From a virus (lineage: Duplodnaviria > Heunggongvirae > Uroviricota > Caudoviricetes): a DNA stretch of 11,129 nucleotides. This document shows, piece after piece, positions 1-11,129 of this stretch (positions are counted from its first letter, which is position 1; each line of letters begins with the position of its first letter). Below the pieces are notes generated by a model. The model made no database searches and was not told the DNA's origin. It saw only the letters and a program-made list of their open reading frames with translations. The stretch lies in IMG/VR virus record IMGVR_UViG_2617270947_000015. The stretch is one strand, 5' to 3'. A program made the translations under genes and the position numbers.

Positions 1-327
1 TCACTTTTTCCAGAGGCGGTCGAACTCCGCCTTCGCAAAATAAGCGGAAGCCTGGCGAAGGATATCGTTACTGCGGCGCAGTTCACGATTTTCACGTTCC
101 AGCTCTTTCAGACGCTGACGTTCAGCGGTGGTGAGCCCTCCATCACCGCCCCCGGTATCCCGCTCATGCTGGCGAACCCAGACACGCAGAGTCTCCGGCG
201 TACAGCCAATCTTTGGAGCAATGGAACAAATTGTCGCCCATTGTGAGTCATATTCGCTCTGACTTTCCAGAACCATACGGACTGCCCGTTGACGGACTTC
301 GGGGGAAAAACGAGTATTTTTAGTCAT
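1..327 (-). CDS. IS3-family transposase OrfA (108 aa, HTH protein)
   Basis: Translation [21 protein letters not shown]...[32 protein letters not shown] has the typical IS3-family OrfA HTH plus leucine-zipper layout. It lies 54 bp inside the terminal inverted repeat. Confidence 0.85.
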
Positions 328-381
328 CCTGTTTACCTCTTTCTCAGGAAGTTTAGTCTCCAGGATTCCCGGGGCGGTTCA
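1..381 (-). mobile_element. Partial IS3-family insertion sequence (IS629/IS1203/IS3411-like); one terminus at 381, remainder off the left edge
   Basis: Read on the minus strand from 381 the sequence is TGAACCGCCCCGGGAATCCTGGAGACTAAACTTCC...AGGTAAACAGG-ATG, which matches my recollection of the IS629-type terminal inverted repeat followed directly by orfA. The orfA ORF is complete; orfB would lie beyond position 1. Confidence 0.8.
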
Positions 382-716
382 GGGGCTTCGTTCGTCCTGA
401 AAAACAGAATCTGCAAAATTTTGCCGAAATTATTCCGGTTATTTCCGGCCTTACTGGCGGGAGTGAAACCAATATTGTTAACGCCAGAGCGTTGCAGATG
501 TTTGATGATAAAAAGGGAGTAAATTTAACTTACACCCCTGACGGCAATCAGAATATGAGCATTATCTCTGAGTCAGGTTTCTACAAACTAATAAAAACAA
601 AAAGCGCCCCGTTGCCGGAGCGCCTTTGTGAACAATTAACCTACTGCGCAAAAAATGAATCTGAGCAGTGGGATTATATCAACCATGTGGAGAAGCGCCA
701 CAATTGCCGAATAACG

Positions 717-747
717 GGCAAAACAAAGGCCACCCGCTACGGTGGCC
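717..747 (-). terminator. Rho-independent terminator for the leftward small-gene operon
   Basis: Perfect 7-bp stem GGCCACC (728-734) / GGTGGCC (741-747) with a 6-nt loop. On the minus strand it is followed by TTTGTTTTG. It sits 80 bp downstream of the minus-strand ORF that ends at 827. Confidence 0.6.
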
Positions 748-826
748 CCTCGACACAAGCTACACGTTATCCCCAACGCATGAGCATTGCCAACAATGCC
801 ACATTTGCGGCTGGTGGGCAATGCAA

Positions 827-1000
827 TCAGTCTGGTTCAGTTCGTTGCCATACCTGCAATGAGCGCTTTTCCCTGTACTCTTTAAGGAATTGCTCAAGGG
901 CAAAAGCACATGGCGCGAATCTTTCTGATTCATGCTCTATCTTTCTGCGCCGTCTTTTCCGTGCCGGTGATAATGTTTTGGTCAATTCTTTATCGGTCAT
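827..1000 (-). CDS. Hypothetical small basic protein (57 aa from the second ATG)
   Basis: Lys/Arg/Glu-rich translation MTDKELTKTLSPARKRRRRKIEHESERF.... An AGGA lies about 9 nt upstream of the ATG at 1000; the ORF-track start at 1015 has no Shine-Dalgarno. It is second in the leftward operon and is followed by the terminator at 717-747. Confidence 0.5.
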   Translation of the reverse strand: MTDKELTKTLSPARKRRRRKIEHESERFAPCAFALEQFLKEYREKRSLQVWQRTEPD

Positions 1001-1057
1001 TGTGTTGTCCTGCATAGCAATGCGCCGTAGTTACTCACACCACGGCGCTGGTGATGG

Positions 1058-1237
1058 TTACTCCTGCTCTTTGGCCTTGCGGCGCTGGCGGCGTTTGATT
1101 TCGCCGCGCATGGCTGCGTTTATAAACTGTCCCGTGCTTTCGCCTTCTTCTTTCACGTTCTCCATGCCTTCAATAATTTCATGGGCAATACGTGCAGTTA
1201 CAGATTGTGATTTTGCATTCTTTGGACCCGTTGCCAT
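1058..1237 (-). CDS. Hypothetical small protein (59 aa); candidate regulator, first gene of the leftward operon
   Basis: The internal ATG at 1237 is preceded on the minus strand by GAGGGG at good spacing (GAGGGGTTAAAC-ATG). Translation is MATGPKNAKSQSVTARIAHEIIEGMENVKEEGESTGQFINAAMRGEIKRRQRRKAKEQE. It sits directly beside the operator-bearing divergent promoter region. The ORF-track start at 1276 is probably too long. Confidence 0.5.
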   Translation of the reverse strand: MATGPKNAKSQSVTARIAHEIIEGMENVKEEGESTGQFINAAMRGEIKRRQRRKAKEQE

Positions 1238-1257
1238 GTTTAACCCCTCATGTTTTT

Positions 1258-1339
1258 GGTGTAAGACAATATACACGAAAAAAAAATATTTTGAAGGGTT
1301 GACGTGTAAGACACCATTGTTTTACATTGTGTCTTACAC
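1258..1339. promoter_or_regulatory. Divergent promoter region with three copies of an 11-bp operator-like motif
   Basis: GGTGTAAGACA at 1258-1268, GTGTAAGACAC at 1304-1314 and its exact inverse GTGTCTTACAC at 1329-1339. Rightward candidate promoter: TTGACG (1299-1304) and TACATT (1323-1328), 18-bp spacer. Leftward candidate on the minus strand: TTCAAA and TATATT around 1270-1297. The motifs overlap the spacer or sit just downstream of the -10 of both promoters. Confidence 0.55.
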
Positions 1340-1436
1340 CTTATTGATGAAAGGCACAGAAACGACGAAACCCCGCACTGTAGGAGCAGTAACGGGGCTT
1401 CTAACCACCAACGATAGCAACAGTATCGAGGTAGCT

Positions 1437-1637
1437 ATGAGAAATCATACCACACACCCGAAAGGGCGGGACTCGCACAACCTGAATAAATACATCTGGC
1501 GTTTTATCGCCCTGAGCACGGCACAACCGCGCGTGATTACCATTGAGGCCACCAGCGAACAGGAAGCACGCCAGCAATCTCCGGCTGGCTGCGTGATGGT
1601 ATTTGCTGCCCGTATTCGTCAGGGGGTAGGCTTATGA
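1437..1637 (+). CDS. Hypothetical protein (66 aa), first gene of the rightward operon
   Basis: GAGGT Shine-Dalgarno 5 nt before the ATG at 1437. Translation MRNHTTHPKGRDSHNLNKYIWRFIALSTAQPRVITIEATSEQEARQQ.... Its stop overlaps the next start (ATGA). The long 492..1637 track ORF is in the same frame but its upstream part looks non-coding. Confidence 0.5.
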   Translation: MRNHTTHPKGRDSHNLNKYIWRFIALSTAQPRVITIEATSEQEARQQSPAGCVMVFAARIRQGVGL

Positions 1638-1864
1638 GCCAGGAAATCACACTACAACAGGCAGCAGAACGCGCCCACCAAATCGAAGTTATTTGCGCAC
1701 TGGCAGAGGATTACCCTAGCATGATGACCGACAGCGAATCAGGGGCAATCATCGGCTTACTTAAACGCCTTAGCGGTGAGGTCTGCGTATTCCTGAGCGA
1801 TGAACAGGAAAGAAGAACGCTTATTTCTAACGAAAAAAAATGCGGAGGGGTACATGTGCAATAA
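1634..1864 (+). CDS. Hypothetical protein (76 aa)
   Basis: AGGGGGTAGG Shine-Dalgarno upstream and ATGA overlap with the preceding gene, indicating translational coupling. Translation MSQEITLQQAAERAHQIEVICALAEDYPSMMTDSESGAIIGLLKRL.... Confidence 0.55.
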   Translation: MSQEITLQQAAERAHQIEVICALAEDYPSMMTDSESGAIIGLLKRLSGEVCVFLSDEQERRTLISNEKKCGGVHVQ

Positions 1865-2084
1865 AACCACACCGGACGCAGCAGAAGAAGCAATGCAAAT
1901 ACTGATACGTGCGCTCGTTGATGTTACCCACATGGTGGAGATTATGGAGAGAAAATCACAGTCGGAGCACGACAAAAGAAAACTTAAAACAATAAAAATA
2001 ATTGCCAAAAACTCGCTGATAAAAGTTACAGACATCCTTAATGAGGACATTAAAAGAATAAGGGAGAAAATTTGTGATGCATAA
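1854..2084 (+). CDS. Hypothetical protein (76 aa), AT-rich cargo gene A
   Basis: Internal ATG at 1854 preceded by GGAGGGG; the ORF-track start at 1800 would overlap the previous gene by 65 nt. Translation MCNKTTPDAAEEAMQILIRALVDVTHMVEIMERKSQSEHDKRKLKTIKIIAKN... is predicted helical. The local sequence is visibly more AT-rich than its flanks. Confidence 0.5.
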   Translation: MCNKTTPDAAEEAMQILIRALVDVTHMVEIMERKSQSEHDKRKLKTIKIIAKNSLIKVTDILNEDIKRIREKICDA

Positions 2085-2304
2085 AATCCCTTTTGAAGTA
2101 TTAATCCACTCTGAAAACGCATTAATTAAAGCACGCGAAATGAATGCGTTGTTAATTAAATTAATTGAAGTGCCGGAAGGTGGCGAAGATCATTCATCAT
2201 TAATGTTTGCCGCTGTTCAGACATTATTGACACCTGTTATTGATGAACTCAATAAGGCTATGGCAATTCACGAGAATAATAAAGCGCCCCACACCGGAGA
2301 ATAA
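2077..2304 (+). CDS. Hypothetical protein (75 aa), AT-rich cargo gene B
   Basis: ATG at 2077 overlaps the stop of the previous ORF (GTGATGCATAA) with AGGGAG upstream. Translation MHKIPFEVLIHSENALIKAREMNALLIKLIEVPEGGEDHSSLMFAAVQTLL.... AT-rich. Confidence 0.5.
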   Translation: MHKIPFEVLIHSENALIKAREMNALLIKLIEVPEGGEDHSSLMFAAVQTLLTPVIDELNKAMAIHENNKAPHTGE

Positions 2305-2309
2305 AAATA

Positions 2310-2609
2310 ATGAAACTTAAATATTCTGGCTTAACTGCCAGTGGCAAAACTCGCACTAAATTCATGCGCGGTGATATTTACCGCGACCAGTACGGCGGCA
2401 CGGTAATGATTAAGGGCGTGGAGGAACGGCGCGTAACCTACCGTCGTGAAGGCTACGAATATGATTGCGTGATGCCTGTTTATCAGTTCGATCGTGATTT
2501 TTCTCTGGTGCAGGCCGTACCGCGTAACGTGCCCACCAGCAGGGAGAAAGCACGCGCCAATATTCAGGAAATAAAAAAGATGCTTAACGTATTCAGGGGT
2601 AAGAAATGA
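2310..2609 (+). CDS. Hypothetical protein (99 aa) immediately upstream of and coupled to the primase gene
   Basis: GGAGA Shine-Dalgarno upstream; its stop overlaps the primase start at 2606. Translation MKLKYSGLTASGKTRTKFMRGDIYRDQYGGTVMIKGVEERRVTYRREGYEYD.... Confidence 0.6.
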   Translation: MKLKYSGLTASGKTRTKFMRGDIYRDQYGGTVMIKGVEERRVTYRREGYEYDCVMPVYQFDRDFSLVQAVPRNVPTSREKARANIQEIKKMLNVFRGKK

Positions 2610-4360
2610 AACTGGCACCGAACGTAAAAAAACAACCACGCGGAATAAAACACAAAGACACAGAGGTAATTATTTTCGCGGGTAGTGATGCGTGGTCACA
2701 TGCAAAACAGTGGCAGGAGCAGGACGGCCCCGCATCCGGCGATAATGTGCCGCCTGTGTGGCTTGGGCCAAATCAGCTTGCCGAACTTGATGCGCTGAAA
2801 ATTGTTCCGGATGGGAAAAAGCGCGTAAGGCTGTACCAGGCCGGAGAACTGGATTTAGTGGAGACCAAAAAGATTGGTCAGAAGCTGGCGGCGGCAGATA
2901 TTCAGGACGCAAATTTTTACCCTGATGGTATGCACGGTCAGAAGGTGGAGAACTGGCGCGAATATCTGGCCCGTGAGCGCCAGAATCTTTCTGATGGTCT
3001 GGTCATTGAGCTTCCGGTAAAGCAAAAGGCGCAACTTTCGCAGATGGCGGACAGTGAGCGCGCGCAGCTGCTTGCCGATCGCTTTGATGGCGTTTGCGTA
3101 CATCCTGAAAGTGAAATCGTTCACGTATGGCGCGGCGGGGTATGGTGTCCGGTCAGCACAATGGAACTTAGCCGCGAAATGGTGGCGATCTATTCAGAGC
3201 ACAGGGCCACTTTCAGCAAGCGCGTAATCAATAACGCCGTGGAAGCGTTAAAAGTTATTGCCGAACCAATGGGCGAGCCGTCCGGCGATTTGCTGCCGTT
3301 CGCCAATGGTGCGCTTGACCTGAAAACGGGGGAATTTTCCCCGCACACGCCGGAGAACTGGATCACCACGCACAACGGCATTGAGTACACGCCACCAGCA
3401 CCAGGGGAGAACATCCGCGATAACGCGCCAAACTTTCATAAATGGCTTAAGCACGCAGCCGGAAAAGACCCGCGCAAGATGATGCGTATATGTGCCGCGC
3501 TGTACATGATTATGGCGAACCGGTACGACTGGCAGATGTTTATTGAGGCCACCGGAGACGGCGGGAGCGGTAAAAGTACATTCACGCACATAGCCAGCCT
3601 TCTGGCAGGGAAACAGAACACGGTAAGCGCTGAAATGACATCGCTTGATGATGCTGGTGGACGTGCGCAGGTTGTCGGGAGTCGTCTTATCGTCCTAGCT
3701 GACCAGCCGAAATATACAGGCGAAGGAACGGGCATCAAGAAAATCACGGGCGGTGACCCCGTGGAAATTAACCCGAAATACGAAAAGCGTTTCACGGCTG
3801 TAATCAGGGCGGTGGTGCTGGCGACCAACAATAACCCGATGATATTCACCGAACGGGCCGAAGGTGTGGCACGTCGTCGCGTGATTTTCCGTTTCGACAA
3901 TATCGTCAGTGAGGCCGAAAAAGACAGGGAGCTACCGGAAAAGATCGCGGCTGAAATCCCTGTCATTATCCGCCGATTGCTGGCGAACTTTACCGACCCT
4001 GAGAAGGCACGGGCTTTACTACTGGAACAGCGTGACGGTGATGAAGCACTGGCAATAAAGCAACAGACGGATCCGGTTATTGAGTTTTGCCAGTTCCTGA
4101 ATTTTCTGGAGGAAGCGCGCGGCCTGATGATGGGGGGCGGTGGCGATTCAGTGAAGTACACGACCAGGAACAGCCTTTACCGCGTCTATCTGGCGTTTAT
4201 GGCATACGCAGGCAGGAGCAAACCGCTAAACGTAAATGACTTTGGAAAGGCTATGAAGCCTGCCGCAAAAGTTTACGGACATGAATATATTACGCGGAAA
4301 GTTAAGGGGGTAACGCAGACTAACGCAATAACAACAGACGAGTGCGACGCGTTTTTATAA
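2606..4360 (+). CDS. Satellite/phage replication protein: P4/D5-family primase-helicase-like NTPase (584 aa)
   Basis: Walker A GDGGSGKST and Walker B-like RLIVLAD motifs in the C-terminal half, with the overall D5_N / P4-family primase C-terminal (SF3 helicase-like) layout. It is followed immediately by an iteron array. The N-terminal ~300 aa are of unclear domain identity. Confidence 0.85.
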   Translation: MKLAPNVKKQPRGIKHKDTEVIIFAGSDAWSHAKQWQEQDGPASGDNVPPVWLGPNQLAELDALKIVPDGKKRVRLYQAGELDLVETKKIGQKLAAADIQDANFYPDGMHGQKVENWREYLARERQNLSDGLVIELPVKQKAQLSQMADSERAQLLADRFDGVCVHPESEIVHVWRGGVWCPVSTMELSREMVAIYSEHRATFSKRVINNAVEALKVIAEPMGEPSGDLLPFANGALDLKTGEFSPHTPENWITTHNGIEYTPPAPGENIRDNAPNFHKWLKHAAGKDPRKMMRICAALYMIMANRYDWQMFIEATGDGGSGKSTFTHIASLLAGKQNTVSAEMTSLDDAGGRAQVVGSRLIVLADQPKYTGEGTGIKKITGGDPVEINPKYEKRFTAVIRAVVLATNNNPMIFTERAEGVARRRVIFRFDNIVSEAEKDRELPEKIAAEIPVIIRRLLANFTDPEKARALLLEQRDGDEALAIKQQTDPVIEFCQFLNFLEEARGLMMGGGGDSVKYTTRNSLYRVYLAFMAYAGRSKPLNVNDFGKAMKPAAKVYGHEYITRKVKGVTQTNAITTDECDAFL

Positions 4361-4373
4361 TTTTTTGTAATTG

Positions 4374-4600
4374 CTGTCTACCCTGTCTACCTGAGTAAAG
4401 AAAAATACATTTAATTCAGTGCATTAAGTTAGGTAGACAGCCTTTTTTTACTGTCTACCCACTATCTACCCTCTCTACCTGATTTTACCTGAATCAGACA
4501 GGGAGGTAGACACGGGGTAGATAGTGGATAAAAGCACTCTACCCCGCTGAAAGCCGCGCCATTACTGGCATGAGGGCCACTAAGGTAGATAAGGTAGACA
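4374..4600. repeat. Iteron array, putative replication origin
   Basis: At least 11 copies of an 8-mer TGTCTACC / GGTAGACA (variants TATCTACC, GGTAGATA, CTCTACC) in both orientations, e.g. 4376-4383, 4384-4391, 4432-4439, 4452-4459, 4463-4470, 4505-4512, 4517-4524, 4584-4591, 4593-4600. Non-coding and directly downstream of the primase-helicase gene. Confidence 0.8.
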
Positions 4601-4648
4601 AGGGGAGGCACAACTCAAAACTTTTTAAACGAGGGGGTAAAAATAAAT

Positions 4649-4927
4649 ATGCACACTTCAGGGAAATTTAATAAATCACTCAAAAAACGCAGAGACAGAA
4701 CAGAACCGAAATATCGCGCGTTAGACATGACAGAGCACGCTTTAAAGGTGGCAATCAGAACGATAGACCGCCACGCGGGGGAAGGATACGCGAAAGCACA
4801 TCCCGAACTGATAAGCGCATTCATGACCACGACGGCGGCAAATTTTGCCACGCTGACAGAGCGGGAGATTGCCGAAGCGGAACAGGTAACAACCATCAAC
4901 GTTAAAACCGGAGAGGTGGAATCATGA
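4649..4927 (+). CDS. Hypothetical protein (92 aa)
   Basis: GAGGGGG upstream of the ATG at 4649. Its stop overlaps the SSB start (ATGA at 4924). Translation MHTSGKFNKSLKKRRDRTEPKYRALDMTEHALKVAIRTIDRHAGEGYAKAHPEL.... Confidence 0.55.
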   Translation: MHTSGKFNKSLKKRRDRTEPKYRALDMTEHALKVAIRTIDRHAGEGYAKAHPELISAFMTTTAANFATLTEREIAEAEQVTTINVKTGEVES

Positions 4928-5346
4928 CAGCACAGATAGCAGCTTACGGGCGGCTGGTGGACGACCCGCAGGTAAAACAGACCAGCAAGGGCACACCGAT
5001 GACGCTGGCGCGTATGGCGGTCCCCCTTCCGTGCAGCCAGGCAGATGACGGAACGGCGACGATGTGGTTATCCGTCCTGGCATTTGGCAGACAGGCCGAA
5101 GCACTGGAAAGGCACCGCAAGGGTGAACTCCTGAGCGTGGCGGGTAACATGCAGATCAGCCAGTGGACTGGGCAGAACGGAGAAACGCGGCAGGGCTGGC
5201 AGGTTATCGCAGACAGTGTAATCAGTGCGCGAACGGCGCGACTGGGCGGCAAAAAAGGTCAACAGGGCCAGGCTACTGACGCGCTGAACAGGGCAAAACA
5301 ACAGGCGGGGAATGATGATCCGTACGGGGATAACATACCGTTTTAA
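4924..5346 (+). CDS. ssb: Single-stranded DNA-binding protein (SSB-like, 140 aa)
   Basis: GGAGAGG Shine-Dalgarno. OB-fold-like core (LSVLAFGRQAEALERHRKGELLSVAGNMQISQWTGQNGETRQGWQVIADSV) followed by a Gly/Gln-rich linker and an acidic C-terminal tip DDPYGDNIPF, resembling the SSB DDDIPF tail. Confidence 0.8.
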   Translation: MTAQIAAYGRLVDDPQVKQTSKGTPMTLARMAVPLPCSQADDGTATMWLSVLAFGRQAEALERHRKGELLSVAGNMQISQWTGQNGETRQGWQVIADSVISARTARLGGKKGQQGQATDALNRAKQQAGNDDPYGDNIPF

Positions 5347-5362
5347 GCGACGAGAGACAGAA

Positions 5363-5384
5363 GCCGGAGCAATCCGGCTTTTTT
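5363..5384 (+). terminator. Rho-independent terminator after the replication operon
   Basis: Stem GCCGGA (5363-5368) / TCCGGC (5373-5378), loop GCAA, then TTTTTT (5379-5384). Nearly identical to the hairpin at 7804-7826. Confidence 0.7.
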
Positions 5385-5450
5385 ACGGGTCCTCCTGGCG
5401 GGGTGGGCCTGAACACGGGGCGGGAAGCGCGGAAAAAAGCGCATTTTTGT
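5385..5450 (+). other. Degenerate cos-like sequence (direct, diverged copy of the cos site at 7827-7900)
   Basis: ACGGGTCCT...ACGGGGCGGGAAGCGCGG...GCATTTTTG aligns with ACGGGTCCTTTCCGG...ACGGGGCGGCGACCTCGCGGGTTTTCGCTATTTATG of copy A, but with many substitutions inside the cosN-equivalent. Confidence 0.5.
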
Positions 5451-5565
5451 GATTTTATCGTCATCATCATCATGAGCGTAATTTATTGTTTTTAATTGTT
5501 TTGATGCAAAAAAGATGATGGTTGTGGTTAATTTTCGTTCGACATCTTTGCAGGCAGATAAAAAA

Positions 5566-5602
5566 GCCCGATAAGGTCAGAGGTGGCTTATCGGGCTTTT
5601 GC
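5566..5602. terminator. Strong hairpin flanked by A/T runs on both sides (potentially bidirectional terminator)
   Basis: Perfect 10-bp stem GCCCGATAAG (5567-5576) / CTTATCGGGC (5588-5597), preceded by AAAAAA and followed by TTTTG. It lies in a ~400-bp stretch with no convincing ORF. Confidence 0.6.
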
Positions 5603-5677
5603 ATATGAGGCTTTTTGGTGCACTGACACACATGAGCGGGATCATCATTTCATAATTTGCAACACAACTCAATATCA

Positions 5678-5726
5678 TTGCACAAAACGCAATCCTGATT
5701 ATAATCAGAGCTGGATGAACATCCAG
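5678..5726 (+). promoter_or_regulatory. Candidate promoter of the capsid operon with an operator palindrome at the predicted start
   Basis: TTGCAC (5678-5683), 16-bp spacer, perfect TATAAT (5700-5705). A perfect 7-2-7 palindrome CTGGATGAACATCCAG (5711-5726) follows immediately downstream of the -10. Confidence 0.5.
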
Positions 5727-5761
5727 TTATGATTTTTTAAGTCGAAGAGGAATTTCTTACT

Positions 5762-5968
5762 ATGGCTGAAGAGAAAAAAGGCGGTGTTTCGGTGTACATA
5801 AGCCCCGAAATCGTGGAGGTGCTCAAGCAGCGCCACAAAAAAAACTATGAGGCTGGCGTGGCGGCTGGACTGGATCCGCTGATGACGCCGGAGCCGTCGA
5901 TAGGTTCACTTGTACGCTCTTATTTACTTGCGGCGCTTGGGATGCATAAAAATTATGGGGGTGAATAA
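5762..5968 (+). CDS. Hypothetical small protein (68 aa), translationally coupled to the major capsid gene
   Basis: GAGGAA Shine-Dalgarno; its stop TAA overlaps the capsid gene ATG at 5968 (TAATGG). Translation MAEEKKGGVSVYISPEIVEVLKQRHKKNYEAGVAAGLDPLMTPEPSIGSLVRSYLLAALGMHKNYGGE. Confidence 0.55.
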   Translation: MAEEKKGGVSVYISPEIVEVLKQRHKKNYEAGVAAGLDPLMTPEPSIGSLVRSYLLAALGMHKNYGGE

Positions 5969-7023
5969 TGGCAGGCAAAGCAACGGCACTTAACACTAAC
6001 CAGCTTTTCATGTACCTGAATCGCGGGGATATTGCGGATTTTAAATTCAGCCCTCTGTTTACTACGCTGTTTTTCCCGAACGTGGCGACATTCAGCACGC
6101 AAAACATCATGCTGGATACCCTGGACATTGAAGAAGTCACCATGTCGGCGTTTTGTTCGCCTATGGTGGGTAGCCAGGTTCAGCGCGATAAAGGGTACGA
6201 AACCAGCACGATTAAACCTGGCTACATGAAGCCAAAGCACGAAATCGATCCAACGAAAACCATCATGCGCATGGCTGGAGAAGATCCGGCACAGCTTAAC
6301 GACCCTACCTATCGCCGTATGCGCCTGATTACTGGCAATATGCGCCGCCAGATAAACGCCATAAAAGCGCGCGTGGAATGGCTGGCGGTAAATGCGGTAA
6401 CGACCGGAAAAAACATCATTGAGGGCGAAGGCATAGAGCGCTATGAAATCGACTGGAAGATACCGGAAAAAAACATCATAGAGCAGGCCGACGGGAAAAA
6501 ATGGTCAGAGCAGGACAAAGAAACCCACGATCCAATCTATGATATCGAACTATACGCCGATCAGGCTGGTTGCCCCGCAAACGTCATGATTATGGGCGCT
6601 GAGGTATGGCGAACGTTACGCAGCTTTAAAAAATTCCGTGAGCTGTACGATCTTTCCCGTGGTTCAGAATCCGCCGCCGAACTGGCCTGTAAAAACCTGG
6701 GCGAAGTGGTGAGCTTTAAAGGCTATCTTGGTGATCTGGCCCTTATCGTCTATTCCGGCAAATACACTGACAGCGATGGTACCGAAAAATATTTCCTTGA
6801 GCCTGATTTGCTGGTCCTGGGCAACACCAACAATAAAGGGCTGGTGGCCTATGGTGCGATAATGGATCAGGAAGCGGTAAGAACGGGCGCAACACAAAAC
6901 ATGTTTTACCCGAAAAACTGGATTGAGGACGGCGATCCGGCGATTGAGTACGTGCAGACACACAGTGCACCGCAGCCGGTACCGGCAGATATTCGCAAAT
7001 TTGTTACCGTCAAAATTGGTTAA
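5968..7023 (+). CDS. Major capsid protein, lambda gpE-like (351 aa)
   Basis: Collinear similarity to lambda gpE as I recall it: FKFSPLF..LFF, TIKPGYMKPKHEIDP, EDPAQLNDPTYRRMR, KWSEQDKETHDP, LRSFK, SFKGYLGDLALIVYSGKY, LVLGNT, YPKNWIEDGDPA, with similar length. Strong GGGGGTGA Shine-Dalgarno. Confidence 0.85.
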   Translation: MAGKATALNTNQLFMYLNRGDIADFKFSPLFTTLFFPNVATFSTQNIMLDTLDIEEVTMSAFCSPMVGSQVQRDKGYETSTIKPGYMKPKHEIDPTKTIMRMAGEDPAQLNDPTYRRMRLITGNMRRQINAIKARVEWLAVNAVTTGKNIIEGEGIERYEIDWKIPEKNIIEQADGKKWSEQDKETHDPIYDIELYADQAGCPANVMIMGAEVWRTLRSFKKFRELYDLSRGSESAAELACKNLGEVVSFKGYLGDLALIVYSGKYTDSDGTEKYFLEPDLLVLGNTNNKGLVAYGAIMDQEAVRTGATQNMFYPKNWIEDGDPAIEYVQTHSAPQPVPADIRKFVTVKIG

Positions 7024-7035
7024 CGGGGGGATTCT

Positions 7036-7371
7036 ATGGACACTCCATACATTGAGTTATTTGCAGGCAGTCAGCAGGTCGCCACGACGCTGGTACATTT
7101 TGCCGCTGATGCTGGCGTTATTCAGGAATTTACCCCGCTGATGCTGGCAGACAATGGCGAGTTTAAGCCGTGGGATGGTCAGGAATCTGGCAAGGCTGTT
7201 TATCTGACCTCGTACCCTGTGGACACGTCAAAGCAGAAATCAGCACAGTGTTACAAGACGGGGATTTTCAATATTGCCGCCGTTAACTGGCCTGAGAGCG
7301 TCGACACCGATGCGAAAAAATGCGCCGCCTTTGCGGGTTCTGGCGTATCCGTTCAGCCGCTGGCCCGATAA
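7036..7371 (+). CDS. Head decoration protein, lambda gpD-like (111 aa)
   Basis: Same length class as lambda gpD with shared motifs TPLML, WDG, YKTGIF (lambda YKSGTF), WPE, DAKK.AAFAG. GGGGGG Shine-Dalgarno. Adjacent to the gpE-like gene. Confidence 0.75.
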   Translation: MDTPYIELFAGSQQVATTLVHFAADAGVIQEFTPLMLADNGEFKPWDGQESGKAVYLTSYPVDTSKQKSAQCYKTGIFNIAAVNWPESVDTDAKKCAAFAGSGVSVQPLAR

Positions 7372-7383
7372 GCAGGGGGAACG

Positions 7384-7797
7384 ATGGCAACGAATGAAAG
7401 CGTCATGACGCTACCGCTGGCGAGTAAATTTAAAGCCGAAGCGCGGGCAATGGCTGACAGAGGTTTATCAACCTACGAGGCCGTATATCAACTCAACAAA
7501 CTGGAAGAGCAGGACAAGCCGCGCGCTGATGCGATTATGGCGCTTCATGAACATAACGACTATCAGCCGCTGTTACGTGCAATGGCAAACGTGCCATGTA
7601 TTAGCGTCGATAATGCTCGTGAAATCCTGAACATGACCATAGAGCAGGAGCGCCCAAAGGTTGCGCCGGAGCTTACCGCAGCCTTTGAAAACTTTATGGA
7701 CATGCACAGCCCGAAAGCCGTATCACCCGGCATGGCATACGACGGCAGAAACCAGGGCGATGAAGGCGACGTCGATCGCATACTGAAAACCATCTGA
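7384..7797 (+). CDS. Hypothetical protein (137 aa), last gene of the capsid operon, immediately upstream of cos
   Basis: GGGGGAACG Shine-Dalgarno. Translation MATNESVMTLPLASKFKAEARAMADRGLSTYEAVYQLNKLEEQDKPRADAIMALHEHNDYQPLLRAMANVP.... The terminator hairpin and cos site follow directly. Confidence 0.6.
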   Translation: MATNESVMTLPLASKFKAEARAMADRGLSTYEAVYQLNKLEEQDKPRADAIMALHEHNDYQPLLRAMANVPCISVDNAREILNMTIEQERPKVAPELTAAFENFMDMHSPKAVSPGMAYDGRNQGDEGDVDRILKTI

Positions 7798-7803
7798 CAT
7801 AAG

Positions 7804-7826
7804 GCCGGAGAAATCCGGCTTTTTTT
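7804..7826 (+). terminator. Rho-independent terminator fused to the upstream edge of the cos site
   Basis: Stem GCCGGA (7804-7809) / TCCGGC (7814-7819), loop GAAA, then TTTTTTT (7820-7826). Confidence 0.7.
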
Positions 7827-7900
7827 ACGGGTCCTTTCCGGCATATGGACCCGTTACGGGGCGGCGACCTCGCGGGTTTTCGCTATTTATGACGTTTTTC
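7827..7900 (+). other. Lambda-type cos site (cosQ-cosN plus start of cosB), intact copy A
   Basis: ACGGGTCCTTTCCGG...GTTACG-GGGCGGCGACCTCGCGGGTTTTCGCTATTTATGA. The 12-nt lambda cohesive-end sequence GGGCGGCGACCT is exact at 7859-7870, and the flanks match the lambda right-end/left-end junction as I recall it. A Nu1-like gene follows, as in lambda. Confidence 0.85.
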
Positions 7901-7959
7901 CGTGAAGGTGACACCACCACCACTTGATTAATATTTAACCATGCGGTTAAGGTAACATT

Positions 7960-8400
7960 ATGATTGATAAAGCTTGTTTTGTAAGTCAGCAGGAAATAGC
8001 TGAACATTTCAAGGTTAACAGAACCACTATTCGCGCATGGACCAAACAGGGGATGCCGTATCTTAATGCGGATCGCGGAAAGTCTGGCGGTTATCACATC
8101 GGGCATACATTGCTTTGGTCTTCAGGTAAAAGCCGTCTTGAGGCCATCAGATATCACGTAGAAACCAGTGCGCTGGAAAAAATTATGTTTGCCAGGCTGC
8201 TTTCATCTGAGCGTGACGAGTACTCCAGTGAAGAAACAGAACATCGATTTGATGAAGGTTTGCAGATTTACGGCTATTCACCGGAAGATGTGAGCAAGGC
8301 ACGAAATAAAATGGCTGGCTTTCTGGCTGGGTGGCGTCATGCCGTAAGCGTTCGCCGTGCCAGCATGGAACAATCAGTCGTTACAGAACAGCAAAGTTAA
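7960..8400 (+). CDS. Small-terminase-like DNA-binding protein (lambda Nu1-like winged HTH N-terminus, 146 aa); candidate cos-recognition / packaging-redirection factor
   Basis: N-terminus VSQQEIAEHFKVNRTTIRAWTKQGMPYLNADRGKSGG aligns with lambda Nu1 VNKKQLADIFGASIRTIQNWQEQGMPVLRGGGKGN. It sits about 60 bp downstream of cos, in the lambda Nu1 position, but no large-terminase gene follows. Confidence 0.7.
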   Translation: MIDKACFVSQQEIAEHFKVNRTTIRAWTKQGMPYLNADRGKSGGYHIGHTLLWSSGKSRLEAIRYHVETSALEKIMFARLLSSERDEYSSEETEHRFDEGLQIYGYSPEDVSKARNKMAGFLAGWRHAVSVRRASMEQSVVTEQQS

Positions 8401-8430
8401 AAATCACTTTCTGTTACGCCATCAAATACG

Positions 8431-8580
8431 CAATACAACAACCACGTATTTTTTTAAAACTATTTGATTCAATTAGCATTTTTTTATTTTTAGCATCAAA
8501 AAAACACTATCAGGTTGTTGTATTGCTCTTTATTTTTACTTAGTTATCAAATGGATATGACAAACAATTAAACAACAACC
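8431..8580. repeat. AT-rich non-coding region with three copies of a GGTTGTTGT-type motif (candidate cosB-like protein-binding sites for the inverted cos copy)
   Basis: CAATACAACAACC at 8431-8443 and its perfect inverse GGTTGTTGTATTG at 8513-8525, 69 bp apart, plus AAACAACAACC at 8570-8580. The sequence between them is extremely AT-rich. Confidence 0.5.
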
Positions 8581-8595
8581 TCCCTCTAAAAAAGC

Positions 8596-8663
8596 TCATA
8601 AATAGCGAAAAACCGCGAGGTCGCCGCCCCGTAACGGGCCATAATTCCAGGAAGGACCCGACG
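8596..8663 (-). other. Second lambda-type cos site in inverted orientation (copy C)
   Basis: Minus-strand reading is GGGTCCTTCCTGGAATTATGGCCCGTTACG-GGGCGGCGACCTCGCGGTTTTTCGCTATTTATGA. The reverse complement of the 12-mer, AGGTCGCCGCCC, is at 8618-8629. About 65 bp are near-identical to copy A, but this copy lacks the upstream terminator hairpin. Confidence 0.8.
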
Positions 8664-8693
8664 ACACCAGACTATCAGAACGATGGGGGCACA

Positions 8694-8975
8694 ATGACAG
8701 AAGCCGAAATACTGCGATTAATCCGCCGCGTTGCCGGAATCAGCCAGCAGCATGACGAACAGGCCACGCAGCCGGACAGCGTGACCGCTGAAAATTATGT
8801 GCGTGTTGTTGCTGAGGTGATGCGCCGTGATGGTATCCAGCTTAATGATGTTGATATGCGCGACATACGGATCCGCGTTCTGGAAATGCTGGCCTACAAT
8901 CGCCGCGTTGAACTGTATCGGGAGAAAGAAAAAATAACGTACCACTGGAAGAAGCCGGAGCGGTTGCGGCGGTAA
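8694..8975 (+). CDS. Hypothetical protein (93 aa)
   Basis: GGGGG Shine-Dalgarno 5 nt upstream of the ATG. Translation MTEAEILRLIRRVAGISQQHDEQATQPDSVTAENYVRVVAEVMRRDGIQLNDVDMRDIRIRVLEMLAYNRR.... Confidence 0.55.
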   Translation: MTEAEILRLIRRVAGISQQHDEQATQPDSVTAENYVRVVAEVMRRDGIQLNDVDMRDIRIRVLEMLAYNRRVELYREKEKITYHWKKPERLRR

Positions 8976-9587
8976 CTGGTTGATATTTTCGAAATTCGCC
9001 AGCGGCGAACATCGGGGAAACCAGCCTAACCCGTTGATATTTTCGGAAACCTCAATTTGAGGAAGTCGGCGCGGTAACTCGCTGAACTTAAAGCAAAGCG
9101 CAAAATTGCGCTTGCTGAATAATCATTATGATTACGCAGATGATTAAGGAATGACCGAAGGCGGAAATTCGCCTGTGGTTAATGGGGGAGTTGCAGATCT
9201 GCAACTCGACCATGAAACTACGGAAACTACCCGTAGTTTGGGTAGTAAGAGTAACACCCAGATTTTGGGGCTTACTCGTGATACCCAAATTTGGGGTATC
9301 GGTGGCAACCATAACGACTTTCGTTACGGTTGATGCTTTTACCCCATTGGGGGAAAGGTATTACGATAATCATAACACCTACCGAACAGGTAAAGCCCAC
9401 CAGCCTGATTAACGTTTAACCGGAAAAAAATTCCGGTAGGTGGGGATCCCCATATAGACATTAACGCCCCTCATGAATTGGTGCGCTTCCCCCTGGAAAG
9501 ATGATCCGCCTGTATATTTCTTGTGTCTATTTGTTCCACGTTGTTTCATACGGTGCACCGAACGGTGTAGTTAATGGTGTAGTCAAT
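8966..9587. repeat. Repeat- and palindrome-dense non-coding region between the last island ORF and phoQ (candidate att arm / regulatory region)
   Basis: Direct repeats GTTGATATTTTCG(A/G)AA at 8979-8994 and 9033-9049; GCGGTAACT at 8968-8976 and 9071-9079. Palindromes AAGCGCAA-aa-TTGCGCTT (9096-9113), GTTGCAGATCTGCAAC (9190-9205), AAACTAC-cc-GTAGTTT (9224-9239), CCGGAA-aaaaa-TTCCGG (~9420-9437), CGGTGCACCG (9551-9560). Tandem GGTGTAGTTAAT / GGTGTAGTCAAT (9564-9587). Confidence 0.5.
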
Positions 9588-9668
9588 TTGCGATTTTTGG
9601 CACTTTTTCAGTGTAGATTATTTAATTAAATCAATGGTTTGTCTTGATATAGTGATAAAAGGGCATAT

Positions 9669-11129
9669 TTATTCATCTTTCGGCGCAGAATGCTGGCGAC
9701 CAAAAATCACCTCCATCCGCGCACCGCCCAGCATGCTCTCTCCGGCGACGATTTTACCCTCATATTGCTCGGTGATTTCGCGGGCTACCGCCAGCCCTAC
9801 ACCTTGCCCAGGGCGTAAAGTATCAACCCGTTGACCACGGTCGAAAATGACCTCTCGCTTGCTTAATGGAATACCGGGGCCATCATCCTCGACCACAATA
9901 TAGAGATGCTCGTCGGTTTGCCTTGCAGAAATTTCGACAAACTCGAGGCAATATTTACAGGCATTATCCAGCACGTTGCCCATCACCTCGACAAAATCGT
10001 TCTGCTCACCGACAAAGCTGATCTCTGGCGAAATATCGAGAGAGATATTGACCCCTTTGCGTTGATACACTTTGTTCAGCGCTGAGGTGAGATTGTCCAG
10101 CAGTGGGGCGACCGGATGCAGCTCGCGGCTGAGCAATGTCCCGCCGCGCATACTGGCACGATGCAGGTAGTAGCCAATTTGCTGTGAAATGCGGCTGATT
10201 TGCTCCAGCATTACCGGCTCAGCATCACTGACGCTCATCTTTTCACTACGCAGAGAACGCAGCGTACTTTGCAGCACCGCCAGTGGCGTTTTCAGACTAT
10301 GGGTCAGGTCGGTGAGCGTCGTACGGTATTTGTCGTAACGTTCGCGTTCACTTTTTAACAATCGGTTCAGGTTTCGTACCAGACTGGTCAGTTCTCGCGT
10401 TGTGGCTGGATTGAGCAATTCGCGGTTATGTTCTTCCAGTTCGCGGACTTCTTTTGCCAGGGCTTCGATGGGGCGTAAACTCCACCAGGCGGCGACCCAC
10501 AGCAGCGGGATCACTAACAGCAGATTGGCTGAGAGCACATAGATAAACCAGCTCCAGACCATATAGGAACTTTTTAGCTCCACCGGAATGGTATCCACCA
10601 CCACAATGGTTAATTTTGGCATCCGCGATGTTGCCGGGTAGACGTTTACTGCCACCGAGTGGGTCATCTCCGCGTCGTCATCATCTTCCCGCACTTCCTG
10701 CAACTGTTGCTGTATCGAATGATCTCCACTCAGCAAGAGGCTGGTATCGTTAACATCCGCTTCAATTTCATGAAAACCATTCGATTTCAGCCAGTCAGGC
10801 TGGATCATCTTCATCAGCCAGGGCACGTCACGTTGCGCCCATAAAAGCTGCCCGTTCTCATCATAAATTAGCGTCATGGTGGGGCTTTGCTTGTCGATAT
10901 TTTCGGGTAACTCGACATGCAACTTATTGTTTTCCCACTTCGCAAGGGTATAGAACAGATTGCTCTCGCCACGTAACAGCCGAAACGTAGTTTTATCGAA
11001 ACTGACGCTATAACCGATCAGCGCGACCATTCCGTAGGCAAGCGAAAGCACCAGTACTACCGCTGCCGTTGCCAACAGAAAACGTACCCGCAGCGAGAGC
11101 GGGAAAAAAAGACGCAGTAATTTTTTCAT
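9669..11129 (-). CDS. phoQ: Sensor histidine kinase PhoQ of the PhoP/PhoQ two-component system, complete, 486 aa
   Basis: Translation [83 protein letters not shown]...HSAPKDE matches E. coli PhoQ: two transmembrane segments, periplasmic sensor domain, HAMP, DHp histidine box ([12 protein letters not shown]) and HATPase domain. The start codon is the last three bases of the window. Confidence 0.97.

What the first reader, a model, noticed from the sequence alone, without database searches (positions are those of the whole stretch)
382..9668. PICI-like phage satellite island lying directly downstream of phoQ
The ~9 kb between the IS element and phoQ has the gene content of a helper-dependent satellite, not a prophage or core chromosome: operator-controlled switch, P4/D5-family primase-helicase, iteron origin, SSB, a lambda-type cos site and a Nu1-like protein. 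It lacks a large terminase, portal and tail genes. The lambda-type cos and gpE/gpD-like genes point to lambdoid cos phages as helpers. No integrase is in the window.
Basis: partly seen in the sequence, partly recalled or inferred. Interest (0 to 1): 0.7.

Follow-up and report, generated by a model that had tools for sequence, protein, structure and literature searches.

The report
IS-disrupted copy of PICI EcCICFT073

Summary
Window 382-9668 is an allele of EcCICFT073, the experimentally characterised model Gram-negative phage-inducible chromosomal island (PICI). It is syntenic with the CFT073 island gene for gene (RppA 98.6%, capsid homolog 98.0%, decoration homolog 99.1%, primase 94.3% identical) and sits at the same roxA/phoQ attachment site. 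That site is empty in 4,822 and occupied in 593 of 5,426 complete E. coli genomes. Verified here: attR core (9661-9672) abutting the phoQ stop, integrase arm repeats, D5/P4-type primase-helicase, an iteron origin (11 of 12 motif copies in 288 bp), SSB, gpE- and gpD-like genes, and no terminase large subunit, portal or tail genes. Refinements: there are two lambda-type cos sites, inverted, flanking the "Nu1-like" gene. That gene is Rpp, which retargets the helper's small terminase. The left boundary is an IS629 end, not attL. Integrase and alpA, present in all intact relatives, lie beyond the contig start, so mobility of this copy is unknown. Beyond the literature read, the "switch" is a YlcI/YnfO-family gene with three operators that co-vary with the protein across 84 loci. 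It is nested antisense in a long eta-like open frame.

The parts
1..381 (-). Left end of IS629 (IS3 family): orfA at 1-327, terminal inverted repeat ending at 381. It is not part of the island. It interrupts the island 83 bp downstream of where alpA ends in intact relatives.
   Evidence: HTH_Tnp_1 domain. 99% identical over 1-381 to copies annotated IS629 in Stx phages. Homology to intact islands starts at 382.
382..1082 (+). Truncated BRO-N-type reading frame. It is the N-terminal part of a long open frame (357-1637) that continues into the Icd-like gene. IS629 cuts it at about codon 11.
   Evidence: PGAP annotates the equivalent stretch in relatives as a BRO-N pseudogene lacking its C-terminus. 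The N-terminus resembles phage Ant antirepressors. Frame openness.
827..1015 (-). 62-aa ORF of unknown function, antisense to the BRO-N frame.
   Evidence: 100% identical over 57 aa to a CFT073 hypothetical protein. Matches phrog_21027 at E = 2e-15.
1058..1237 (-). YlcI/YnfO-family protein (59 aa), transcribed divergently from the main operon. Candidate operator-binding repressor of the island.
   Evidence: NCBIfam NF041551 at E = 5e-18. Residues 12-17 co-vary with the operator core across 84 loci. The fold is undetermined.
1259..1339 (.). Switch region. Three operator copies: O1 1259-1269 (GTGTAAGACAA), O2 1304-1314 (GTGTAAGACAC) and O3 1329-1339 (inverted copy). They bracket a sigma-70-like promoter, TTGACG 1299-1304 and TACATT 1323-1328.
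   Evidence: Within one protein class, variable positions are 2 of 38 in the operators against 60 of 87 elsewhere, Fisher p = 8e-12.
1437..1637 (+). Icd-like small protein (66 aa), first gene after the internal promoter. It is preceded by a conserved leader at 1365-1436.
   Evidence: NCBIfam NF033153 at E = 1e-19. 97% identical to the CFT073 ortholog. Leader conservation.
1634..2609 (+). Four small ORFs: 1634-1864, 1854-2084, 2077-2304, and DUF4222 at 2310-2609. The middle two form a variable module, about 40% identical to CFT073.
2606..4360 (+). Pri-Rep primase-helicase (584 aa), the replication initiator.
   Evidence: D5_N, DUF5906 and Pox_D5 domains. 94.3% identical to the CFT073 protein. 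Residues 141-579 are 40% identical to P4 alpha. The rep-ori function of the CFT073 ortholog was shown experimentally (PMC6092414).
4361..4648 (.). Replication origin: two sets of TCTACC/GGTAGA iterons flanking an AT-rich stretch.
   Evidence: 11 of 12 motif copies in the window fall here, p = 4e-17. This layout is described for Gram-negative PICI origins (PMC6092414, Fig. 2 legend).
4649..5346 (+). 92-aa ORF (phrog_1231) followed by a single-strand DNA-binding protein at 4924-5346.
   Evidence: SSB is 72% identical to the CFT073 ortholog.
5762..7797 (+). Late zone: 68-aa ORF (5762-5968), gpE-like major capsid homolog (5968-7023, the c1499 ortholog), gpD-like decoration homolog (7036-7371, the c1500 ortholog) and a 137-aa ORF (7384-7797).
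   Evidence: Pfam hits. 98.0% and 99.1% identical to CFT073. 43.7% identical to lambda gpE and 35.5% to gpD. The best phage capsid hit is 47.6%. The 137-aa ORF has a weak partial hit to the C-terminus of a head-protease family, but no significant match to lambda Nu3.
7826..7959 (+). cos1: cosQ-like block, cosN at 7859-7870, then an island-specific cosB side running up to the rpp start codon.
   Evidence: Exact lambda cosN. Lambda-like from about -33 to +40, then background similarity. 139 of 141 bases identical to CFT073 cos1, and it matches the published cos1 sequence.
7960..8400 (+). rppA (146 aa): the redirecting-phage-packaging protein, which pairs with the helper's TerS.
   Evidence: E = 6e-31 to RppC, PDB 6HLK. 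98.6% identical to the 144-aa CFT073 RppA, gene c1503 (PMC6739421).
8589..8660 (-). cos2: a second cosQ-cosN unit in inverted orientation, with cosN at 8618-8629 on the minus strand. Its cosB side is unrelated to that of CFT073 cos2.
   Evidence: 74 of 80 bases identical in cosQ-cosN and 28 of 120 beyond it. Matches the published cos2.
8694..8975 (+). 93-aa ORF of unknown function (phrog_1561).
   Evidence: 92% identical to the CFT073 ortholog.
8976..9672 (.). Non-coding right arm and attR. Contains integrase arm-type repeats GGTGTAGTYAAT at 9564-9575 and 9576-9587, and the att core GGGCATATTTAT at 9661-9672 overlapping the phoQ stop codon.
   Evidence: The same arm repeats occur next to int in CFT073 and GmF052. 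The core is present in K-12 attB and in attL and attR of intact islands.
9669..11129 (-). phoQ, the chromosomal flank.
   Evidence: PhoQ_Sensor domain at E = 3e-87.

Best explanation
Window 382-9668 is the Bro, replication and late zones plus attR of an EcCICFT073-type Gram-negative PICI, integrated at the 3' end of phoQ.

**How the family works (shown for the CFT073 allele in PMC6092414 and PMC6739421, inferred for this copy):**
- A lambdoid helper phage switches on the island's AlpA activator.
- The tyrosine integrase excises the roughly 11.4 kb element.
- Pri-Rep fires the adjacent iteron origin and makes concatemers.
- RppA binds the helper's small terminase. The hybrid complex no longer recognises the phage cosB but does recognise the island's cos1 cosB. 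Phage packaging is therefore blocked, and island concatemers are packaged into full-size helper capsids and transferred.

**Inferred here from comparative sequence analysis:**
- An internal promoter in front of the Icd-like gene is bracketed by three operators. The divergently encoded YlcI/YnfO-family protein probably reads them and acts as an island-specific repressor.
- This whole module lies inside a long BRO-N-to-Icd open frame that resembles the arrangement of phage P4 eta.

**State of this copy:** IS629 sits 83 bp downstream of the alpA position, at about codon 11 of that long frame. The contig starts inside the IS. Whether attL, int and alpA survive is unknown. Even if they do, AlpA-driven read-through into the island is probably blocked.
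For: - **Same locus and gene order as CFT073.** Nucleotide identity is 90-97% in blocks. Every ORF has a syntenic ortholog. RppA, the capsid homolog, the decoration homolog and the primase are 94-99% identical.
- **Rpp.** The protein matches crystallised RppC at E = 6e-31.
- **cos1.** 139 of 141 bases match CFT073 cos1, including the RppA-specific cosB side, and they match the published sequence. cosQ and cosN are lambda-like while the cosB side is not, exactly as published.
- **Origin.** The iteron cluster lies directly 3' of pri-rep.
- **att sites.** The att core and arm repeats are defined by comparing an empty site with occupied ones.
- **Occupancy.** The site is empty in 4,822 and occupied in 593 of 5,426 genomes.
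- **Intact relatives.** They carry int and alpA at the left end and no phage structural or lysis genes apart from the capsid and decoration homologs.
- **Switch.** At least 8 protein classes each pair with their own GTG-N5-CAC operator core, repeated 2-3 times at fixed positions. There is a selective footprint on the operators, Fisher p = 8e-12.
- **Long frame.** It has 0 stops, against 18-28 in each of the other two frames. It is open in 34 of 37 distinct switch regions, whose lengths differ by multiples of 3. The P4 eta precedent comes from PMC10111431.
Against: - The defining integration module (attL, int, alpA) is not in the window, and the source contig starts inside IS629. Membership therefore rests on synteny with relatives.
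- No experiment exists for this allele. Its replication and Bro modules differ from CFT073: SSB 72%, YlcI/YnfO 73%, two ORFs about 40%, and no PerC gene.
- The repressor role of YlcI/YnfO is inference only. No DNA-binding fold could be assigned, and part of the protein-operator association could come from linkage.
- There is no sequence homology to P4 eta or kil, and no C4/isrK-type immunity RNA.
- The capsid and decoration homologs have no known function in the published model.
Confidence: 0.9

Rival explanations
1. It is a PICI by descent but a dead, immobilised remnant in this strain. On this reading IS629 insertion, possibly followed by IS-mediated deletion or rearrangement, removed or uncoupled attL, int and alpA. 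The segment can then no longer be induced, excised or transferred, and it persists only as chromosomal cargo.
For: - The IS629 end abuts the island exactly between the alpA position and the rest of the element.
- Deleting int or alpA abolished transfer of EcCICFT073 (PMC6092414, Table 1).
- The same IS junction occurs in several independent assemblies, which suggests a stably inherited lineage marker.
- No complete E. coli genome carries this junction, so no intact context is available.
Against: - All ORFs in the window are full length and orthologous to functional CFT073 genes.
- Another PICI (E300082) carries a simple IS3-family insertion just after alpA and retains int and alpA, so a simple insertion is plausible here too.
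- The internal promoter and both cos sites are intact.
Confidence: 0.45
2. It is a decayed lambdoid prophage: a leftover of cos, Nu1, gpD and gpE head genes plus some early genes.
For: It has a lambda-identical cosN and gpE- and gpD-family genes.
Against: - Intact relatives are about 11.4 kb, bounded by att repeats, and have their own integrase, AlpA and a P4-type primase.
- Gene order (capsid, decoration, cos, rpp) is not lambda's order.
- The capsid homolog is at most 48% identical to any phage capsid protein searched.
- The Nu1-like gene is Rpp.
- There are no lysis, tail, portal, terminase large subunit, CI/Cro or Q genes.
- Helper dependence was shown for the CFT073 allele (PMC6092414).
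Confidence: 0.03
3. It is a P4-like satellite that depends on P2-type helpers.
For: The helicase part of the primase is 40% identical to P4 alpha, AlpA is 47% identical to P4 Vis, and the integrase is distantly related. It has an eta-like long frame containing an internal promoter.
Against: - There are no Sid, Delta or Psu homologs and no P2/P4 cos sequence. It has lambda-type cos instead.
- No CI/C4-type RNA was detected.
- Gene order and content differ, and the family's authors argue for independent lineages (PMC6092414, Discussion).
Confidence: 0.02

Closest known systems
EcCICFT073 (E. coli CFT073 PICI; Fillol-Salom et al. 2018, ISME J; 2019, Mol Cell)
   Same: - Same attachment site between roxA and phoQ.
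- Same gene order from the Bro zone to attR.
- RppA 98.6%, capsid homolog 98.0%, decoration homolog 99.1% and Pri-Rep 94.3% identical.
- cos1 identical at 139 of 141 bases.
- Two inverted cos sites flanking rppA.
- Iteron origin directly 3' of pri-rep.
   Different: - IS629 replaces the view of the left end, so int and alpA are not in the window.
- Different operator/repressor specificity class: GTGTAAGACAC here against GTGGGCCACAC in CFT073, with YlcI/YnfO 73% identical.
- Two small ORFs are only about 40% identical and SSB is 72%.
- There is no PerC-family gene.
- The cosB side of cos2 is unrelated.
- A different 320-bp segment lies in the right arm.
Satellite phage P4
   Same: - Related helicase domain (40% to alpha), AlpA/Vis-type regulator and tyrosine integrase.
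- Overall size about 11 kb.
- A long Bro-network open frame that contains an internal promoter and the immunity determinant, with a short C-terminal product, as in P4 eta/kil.
   Different: - No Sid, Delta or Psu.
- Lambda-type rather than P2-type cos.
- The putative immunity determinant is a small divergently encoded protein with DNA operators, not the CI RNA.
- No sequence similarity to eta or kil.
Capsid-forming PICIs (cf-PICIs)
   Same: It is a satellite island with int, AlpA and Pri-Rep in its relatives, and it carries a capsid-protein gene.
   Different: It lacks portal, protease, head-tail connector and terminase genes. EcCICFT073 DNA is packaged in phage-sized helper capsids (PMC6092414).
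Phage P22 immI region (Mnt/Arc/Ant), recalled from general knowledge and not tested here
   Same: A small repressor gene transcribed divergently from a promoter it overlaps with its operators, guarding genes of the Ant/Bro network.
   Different: There is no detectable sequence or fold relationship, and the fold of YlcI/YnfO is undetermined.

Membership tests
Gram-negative PICI (EcCICFT073 type) | Site-specific insertion at a PICI-type attachment site, flanked by att repeats | tested here: met
   The attR core is at 9661-9672 with arm repeats at 9564-9587. The same core is present in empty K-12 attB and at attL and attR of CFT073 and GmF052. The site is empty in 4,822 of 5,426 genomes. attL itself lies outside the window.
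Gram-negative PICI (EcCICFT073 type) | Tyrosine integrase and AlpA activator at the left end | tested here: inconclusive
   Neither is in the window, and the contig starts inside IS629. Both are present, with identical proteins, in CFT073, GmF052 and NCTC86 at the syntenic position.
Gram-negative PICI (EcCICFT073 type) | Pri-Rep primase-helicase with an iteron origin immediately 3' of it | tested here: met
Gram-negative PICI (EcCICFT073 type) | Helper-type cos site with island-specific cosB, plus an Rpp protein | tested here: met
Gram-negative PICI (EcCICFT073 type) | Small size (10-20 kb), no lysis or tail genes and no complete head or terminase gene set | tested here: met
   Intact relatives measure 11.3-11.5 kb between att cores. 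Gene content.
Gram-negative PICI (EcCICFT073 type) | Induction, replication and high-frequency transfer that depend on a helper phage | not testable with these tools
   Shown for the CFT073 allele only (PMC6092414, PMC6739421).
P4-like satellite | Sid, Delta and Psu capsid-size and transactivation genes, and a P2-type cos | tested here: not met
   tblastn of the island proteins against P4 hits only alpha, Vis and Int. The P4 cos sequence is absent from the window.
Capsid-forming PICI | Own portal, protease, head-tail connectors and both terminase subunits | tested here: not met
   None was found by Pfam, PHROGs or NCBIfam in the window, or by annotation in intact relatives.
Lambdoid prophage (intact or defective) | Terminase large subunit, portal, tail and lysis genes, and CI/Cro-type immunity | tested here: not met
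   All are absent between roxA and phoQ in intact relatives and in the window.

The most novel reading that the evidence does not exclude
The divergently transcribed YlcI/YnfO-family protein may be the sequence-specific repressor (immunity determinant) of EcCICFT073-type PICIs, which the 2018 paper described as 'unclear'.

- It would read three GTG-N5-CAC operators that bracket an internal promoter.
- It exists in at least eight interchangeable protein/operator specificity classes.
- It is nested antisense inside a long BRO-N-to-Icd open frame.
- That frame would be kept open so that AlpA-driven translation from upstream can override repression, as in P4 eta but with a protein repressor in place of the CI RNA.

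I found no description of this in the papers I could search.
Probability: 0.4. Interest if true: 0.6.

Novelty: already known. Interest (0 to 1): 0.3.

Why it matters
The finding itself re-identifies a model phage satellite, so it adds little new biology. It does show that a reader working from sequence alone can recognise a PICI.

- **For annotation:** this phoQ-adjacent island, present in about 11% of complete E. coli genomes, should be labelled an EcCICFT073-type PICI. Its "terminase small subunit" or "hypothetical" gene should be labelled Rpp.
- **For this strain:** the IS629 insertion probably uncouples the island from its activator. That matters for predicting whether it can still interfere with lambdoid (including Stx-type) phages or be transduced.
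- **The side observation is the part with research value.** It is a co-varying repressor/operator module nested antisense in an eta-like frame. If confirmed, it would supply a missing piece of Gram-negative PICI regulation and explain how related islands keep separate control circuits.

Tried and rejected
- **Finding what lies left of the IS.**
  - The exact IS/island junction is absent from species-representative genomes.
  - It is also absent from 5,426 complete E. coli genomes. The one apparent hit, E300082, is a different PICI at abgR-smrA with its own IS3-family insertion.
  - An exact-protein lookup found the source contig and a metagenome contig, but both break at the IS.
- **C4/isrK/CI-type immunity RNA in the leader before the Icd-like gene.** There was no Rfam hit at gathering score or at E up to 10. 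The only hits were spurious miRNA matches to the operator palindrome and to the iterons. Rejected.
- **The 137-aa ORF as a lambda Nu3-like scaffold.** It has only a partial PHROG hit to a protease family C-terminus. Pairwise comparison with Nu3 and gpC is not significant, and there is no Pfam hit at E up to 10. Left as a weak lead.
- **Purifying selection on the capsid and decoration homologs.**
  - dN/dS against CFT073 is 0.18 and 0.15, but it rests on only 20 and 3 substitutions.
  - Against a divergent PICI it is 0.20, with synonymous sites saturated.
  - This suggests the genes are functional but is not decisive.
- **Fold of YlcI/YnfO.** A profile search found no PDB hit and there is no Pfam hit. 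The single-sequence AlphaFold model (pLDDT 83, two helices) gave no significant Foldseek match. The ribbon-helix-helix idea is unsupported.
- **dN/dS to decide which strand is coding across the YlcI/YnfO gene.** This is uninformative, because the long frame shares wobble positions with the antisense gene.
- **Homology of the long frame to P4 eta or kil.** None was found.
- **Promoter and terminator consensus scan of the whole island.** Counts were no higher than in shuffled sequence. Only the conserved 1299 promoter is used, and that rests on cross-island conservation.

Full report
**What is in the window**

- ORF listing and domain searches give three blocks. Block one is an IS3-family transposase orfA fragment at 1-327 on the minus strand. 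Block two is a block of small genes, almost all on the plus strand, from about 490 to 8975. Block three is phoQ at 9669-11129 on the minus strand.
- There are no tRNA or tmRNA genes and no Rfam family at gathering score.
- The first 381 bases are 99% identical to elements annotated as IS629 in Stx phages.

**Identity of the island**

- A megablast of the window against 5,426 complete E. coli genomes finds 26 genomes that cover at least 80% of it at 94-97% identity. Every alignment starts at window position 382. The hits include strain CFT073.
- In CFT073, GmF052 and NCTC86 the homologous segment lies between roxA and phoQ. It begins with a tyrosine integrase and an AlpA-type HTH gene, which are missing from the window.
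- The literature identifies the CFT073 element as EcCICFT073, the model Gram-negative PICI. It carries a capsid homolog (c1499), a head-decoration homolog (c1500), rppA (c1503, 144 residues), two cos sites and a pri-rep-ori replicon.
- Every window ORF has a syntenic CFT073 ortholog:

| Gene | Identity to CFT073 |
|---|---|
| RppA | 98.6% |
| Capsid homolog | 98.0% |
| Decoration homolog | 99.1% |
| Pri-Rep | 94.3% |
| Icd-like | 97% |
| DUF4222 | 86% |
| SSB | 72% |
| YlcI/YnfO | 73% |
| Two small ORFs | about 40% |

- The window lacks the PerC-family gene of CFT073, and a 320-bp segment in the right arm differs. It is therefore a mosaic allele of a known element.

**Boundaries and mobility signature**

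- K-12 has only 75 bp between the phoQ stop codon and the roxA start codon.
- Comparing that empty site with occupied ones defines a core, GGRCATATTTAT. It is present once in K-12, at attL and attR in CFT073 and GmF052, and at 9661-9672 in the window, where it overlaps the phoQ stop codon.
- Two tandem 12-mers (GGTGTAGTYAAT) lie about 90 bp inside attR. They occur again just upstream of int in intact islands, as expected for integrase arm-type sites.
The empty junction is present in 4,822 genomes and the attR junction in 593 of the 5,426.

**The left end**

- The island sequence resumes at 382, directly after the IS629 terminal repeat. This point lies 83 bp downstream of the alpA stop codon in intact relatives, at about codon 11 of a BRO-N-type reading frame.
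- The window is bases 21-11149 of draft contig JHDM01000025.1 (GCA_000601175.1), which starts inside the IS. A metagenome contig shares the same junction and also breaks there.
- No complete genome or species-representative genome carries the junction.
- Whether attL, int and alpA survive beyond the IS cannot be decided with the data available.
- A different PICI, in strain E300082 at abgR-smrA, has a simple IS3-family insertion at a comparable position and keeps int and alpA.

**Replication module**

- The 584-aa protein has D5_N, DUF5906 and Pox_D5 domains. Over residues 141-579 it is 40% identical to the helicase and origin-binding part of P4 alpha.
- In the 288-bp gap that follows it, 11 of the window's 12 copies of TCTACC/GGTAGA are clustered in two sets around an AT-rich stretch, p = 4e-17. 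This is the layout described for Gram-negative PICI origins.
- An SSB gene follows.

**Packaging module**

- The lambda cosN 12-mer occurs exactly twice, on opposite strands at 7859-7870 and 8618-8629. Both copies lie within a 72-nt inverted repeat that flanks the 146-aa gene.
- Aligned in register with lambda cos, both sites share a cosQ-like block, cosN (12 of 12) and 24-25 of the next 28 bases. Similarity then falls to background on the cosB side, 45-51 of 160. This matches the published description of EcCICFT073.
- The published cos1 and cos2 sequences (supplementary Figure S1A of PMC6739421, machine-read with OCR errors) identify the left site as cos1 and the right, inverted site as cos2.
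  - cos1 is 139 of 141 identical to CFT073, including its cosB side.
  - cos2 keeps cosQ-cosN (74 of 80) but has an unrelated cosB side (28 of 120).
- The two cosN copies are on opposite strands in all three intact relatives as well. The main texts of the two papers do not mention this orientation.
- The 146-aa protein matches the RppC crystal structure sequence at E = 6e-31. Its N-terminal winged-helix part matches lambda Nu1 only weakly.
According to PMC6739421, Rpp heterodimerises with helper TerS. This blocks phage cos recognition and redirects the terminase to the island's cos1.

**Capsid-related genes**

- The gpE-like protein is 43.7% identical to lambda gpE and at most 47.6% identical to any phage capsid protein in the collection. 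The gpD-like protein is 35.5% identical to gpD.
[quoted passage not shown] - dN/dS values of about 0.2 suggest the genes are maintained, but the evidence is thin. Their role remains open.
- They do not identify the helper. The cos sites and Rpp do.

**The switch**

- Between the minus-strand YlcI/YnfO-family gene (1058-1237) and the Icd-like gene (1437-1637) lies a sigma-70-like promoter, TTGACG-18-TACATT at 1299-1328. An 11-mer, GTGTAAGACAC, abuts the -35 hexamer. An inverted copy lies just past the -10 hexamer, and an imperfect third copy lies near the YlcI/YnfO start.
- In four islands the -35 hexamer and the downstream leader are invariant, but the 11-mers are island-specific.
- I collected 80 further loci from viral contigs.
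  - The protein's residues 12-17 fall into classes, and each class pairs with its own GTG-N5-CAC core. Examples are SVTARI with TAAGA, ALKARV with GGCCA, KKLEARV with GCTGA and KRIDARV with TCCCA.
  - Because the gene and its sites are adjacent, linkage could contribute to this association.
  - Within the single SVTARI class (19 distinct sequences), however, the operators and the -35 hexamer show 2 variable positions in 38. The spacers and flanks show 60 in 87, Fisher p = 8e-12.
- Its fold could not be assigned.
- I found no paper describing it. The 2018 paper calls the existence of a repressor in these elements 'unclear'.

**A long open frame through the switch**

- The frame of the Icd-like gene is open for 426-435 codons in the window, CFT073 and GmF052. 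It has 0 stops, against 18-28 in each of the other two plus-strand frames.
- It runs from a BRO-N-type N-terminus, which PGAP annotates as a truncated pseudogene. It continues antisense across both minus-strand genes and through the operator region into Icd.
- For the operator region alone, 34 of 37 distinct sequences in 7 of 10 classes have no stop in this frame. Total stops are 11, against 207 and 179 in the other two frames. The lengths of the open classes differ by multiples of three.
- dN/dS cannot tell the strands apart, because the two frames share wobble positions.
- The best available model is phage P4 eta, as summarised in PMC10111431.
  - It is a long Bro-network ORF that contains an internal constitutive promoter and the immunity determinant.
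  - It has a short C-terminal product.
  - Its full-length translation, from an upstream AlpA-coupled promoter, prevents termination.
- There is no sequence similarity to P4 eta or kil, and no CI/C4-type RNA here. The resemblance is therefore architectural, not established homology.

**Rivals**

- **Defective lambdoid prophage:** excluded by the bounded 11.4-kb size, the gene content and the experimental helper dependence of the CFT073 allele.
- **P4-like satellite:** fails on Sid, Delta, Psu and cos type.
- **Capsid-forming PICI:** fails on portal, protease and terminase genes.
- **Dead copy:** the live question is functional state. With IS629 between alpA and the rest, AlpA-driven read-through is probably blocked. 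The island would also grow to about 12.6 kb, which changes how many copies fit in a lambda head (inference). The published tetA-marked, enlarged island transferred less well.

**Verdict**

The element is already known. The copy here is IS-disrupted, and its ability to move is unknown. The repressor/operator module and the eta-like frame are the only parts that go beyond the literature I could read.

Noticed in passing
window 1058-1339; loci L001, L002, L004, L013-L092: A YlcI/YnfO-family 59-aa protein is transcribed divergently from a promoter bracketed by three GTG-N5-CAC operators. At least 8 protein classes (defined by residues 12-17) each pair with their own operator core. Within one class the operators are invariant while the spacers drift (Fisher p = 8e-12). 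It is a candidate island-specific repressor and was not described in the papers searched.
   Followed up: yes
window 357-1637 (+); L001 5955-7256; L002 5955-7262: A frame of 426-435 codons runs from a BRO-N-type N-terminus, antisense through two genes and the operator region, into the Icd-like gene. It is open in 34 of 37 distinct switch regions, whose lengths differ by multiples of 3. It resembles the P4 eta arrangement but shows no sequence homology to it.
   Followed up: partly
window 7828-7899 and 8589-8660: The two cos sites are in inverted orientation, with both cosB sides pointing inward toward rppA. This also holds in CFT073, GmF052 and NCTC86. The main texts of the two EcCICFT073 papers do not mention the orientation. 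The cosB side of cos2 is unrelated between this allele and CFT073.
   Followed up: partly
L004 (E. coli E300082, abgR-smrA site) 9043-19943: A different PICI at another att site, with a RepA-type helicase and an annotated small terminase subunit. It also carries an IS3-family element immediately downstream of alpA and retains int and alpA. The alpA/Bro junction may be a recurrent IS target.
   Followed up: no
window 7384-7797: The 137-aa ORF after the decoration gene has a partial match (E = 2e-9) to the C-terminal part of PHROG 53, 'head maturation protease'. Direct comparison with lambda Nu3 and gpC is not significant. It may be a scaffold-like remnant.
   Followed up: partly
window 5363-5384 and 7804-7825: A near-identical 22-nt hairpin followed by a T-run (GCCGGAG[C/A]AATCCGGCTTTTTT) follows the SSB gene and the 137-aa ORF. 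Both copies look like intrinsic terminators that would divide the island into transcription units.
   Followed up: no
window 8974-9053: Two copies of AACCCGTTGATATTTTCG-like sequence lie 54 bp apart just after the last ORF. They are conserved in CFT073 and GmF052. They may be binding sites for a recombination directionality factor or host factor in the right arm.
   Followed up: no
window 5968-7371 compared with 2606-4360: Synonymous divergence from CFT073 is about 0.01-0.05 across the capsid-to-rpp block but about 0.19 in the primase. This indicates recent recombinational exchange of the late/packaging module between island alleles.
   Followed up: partly
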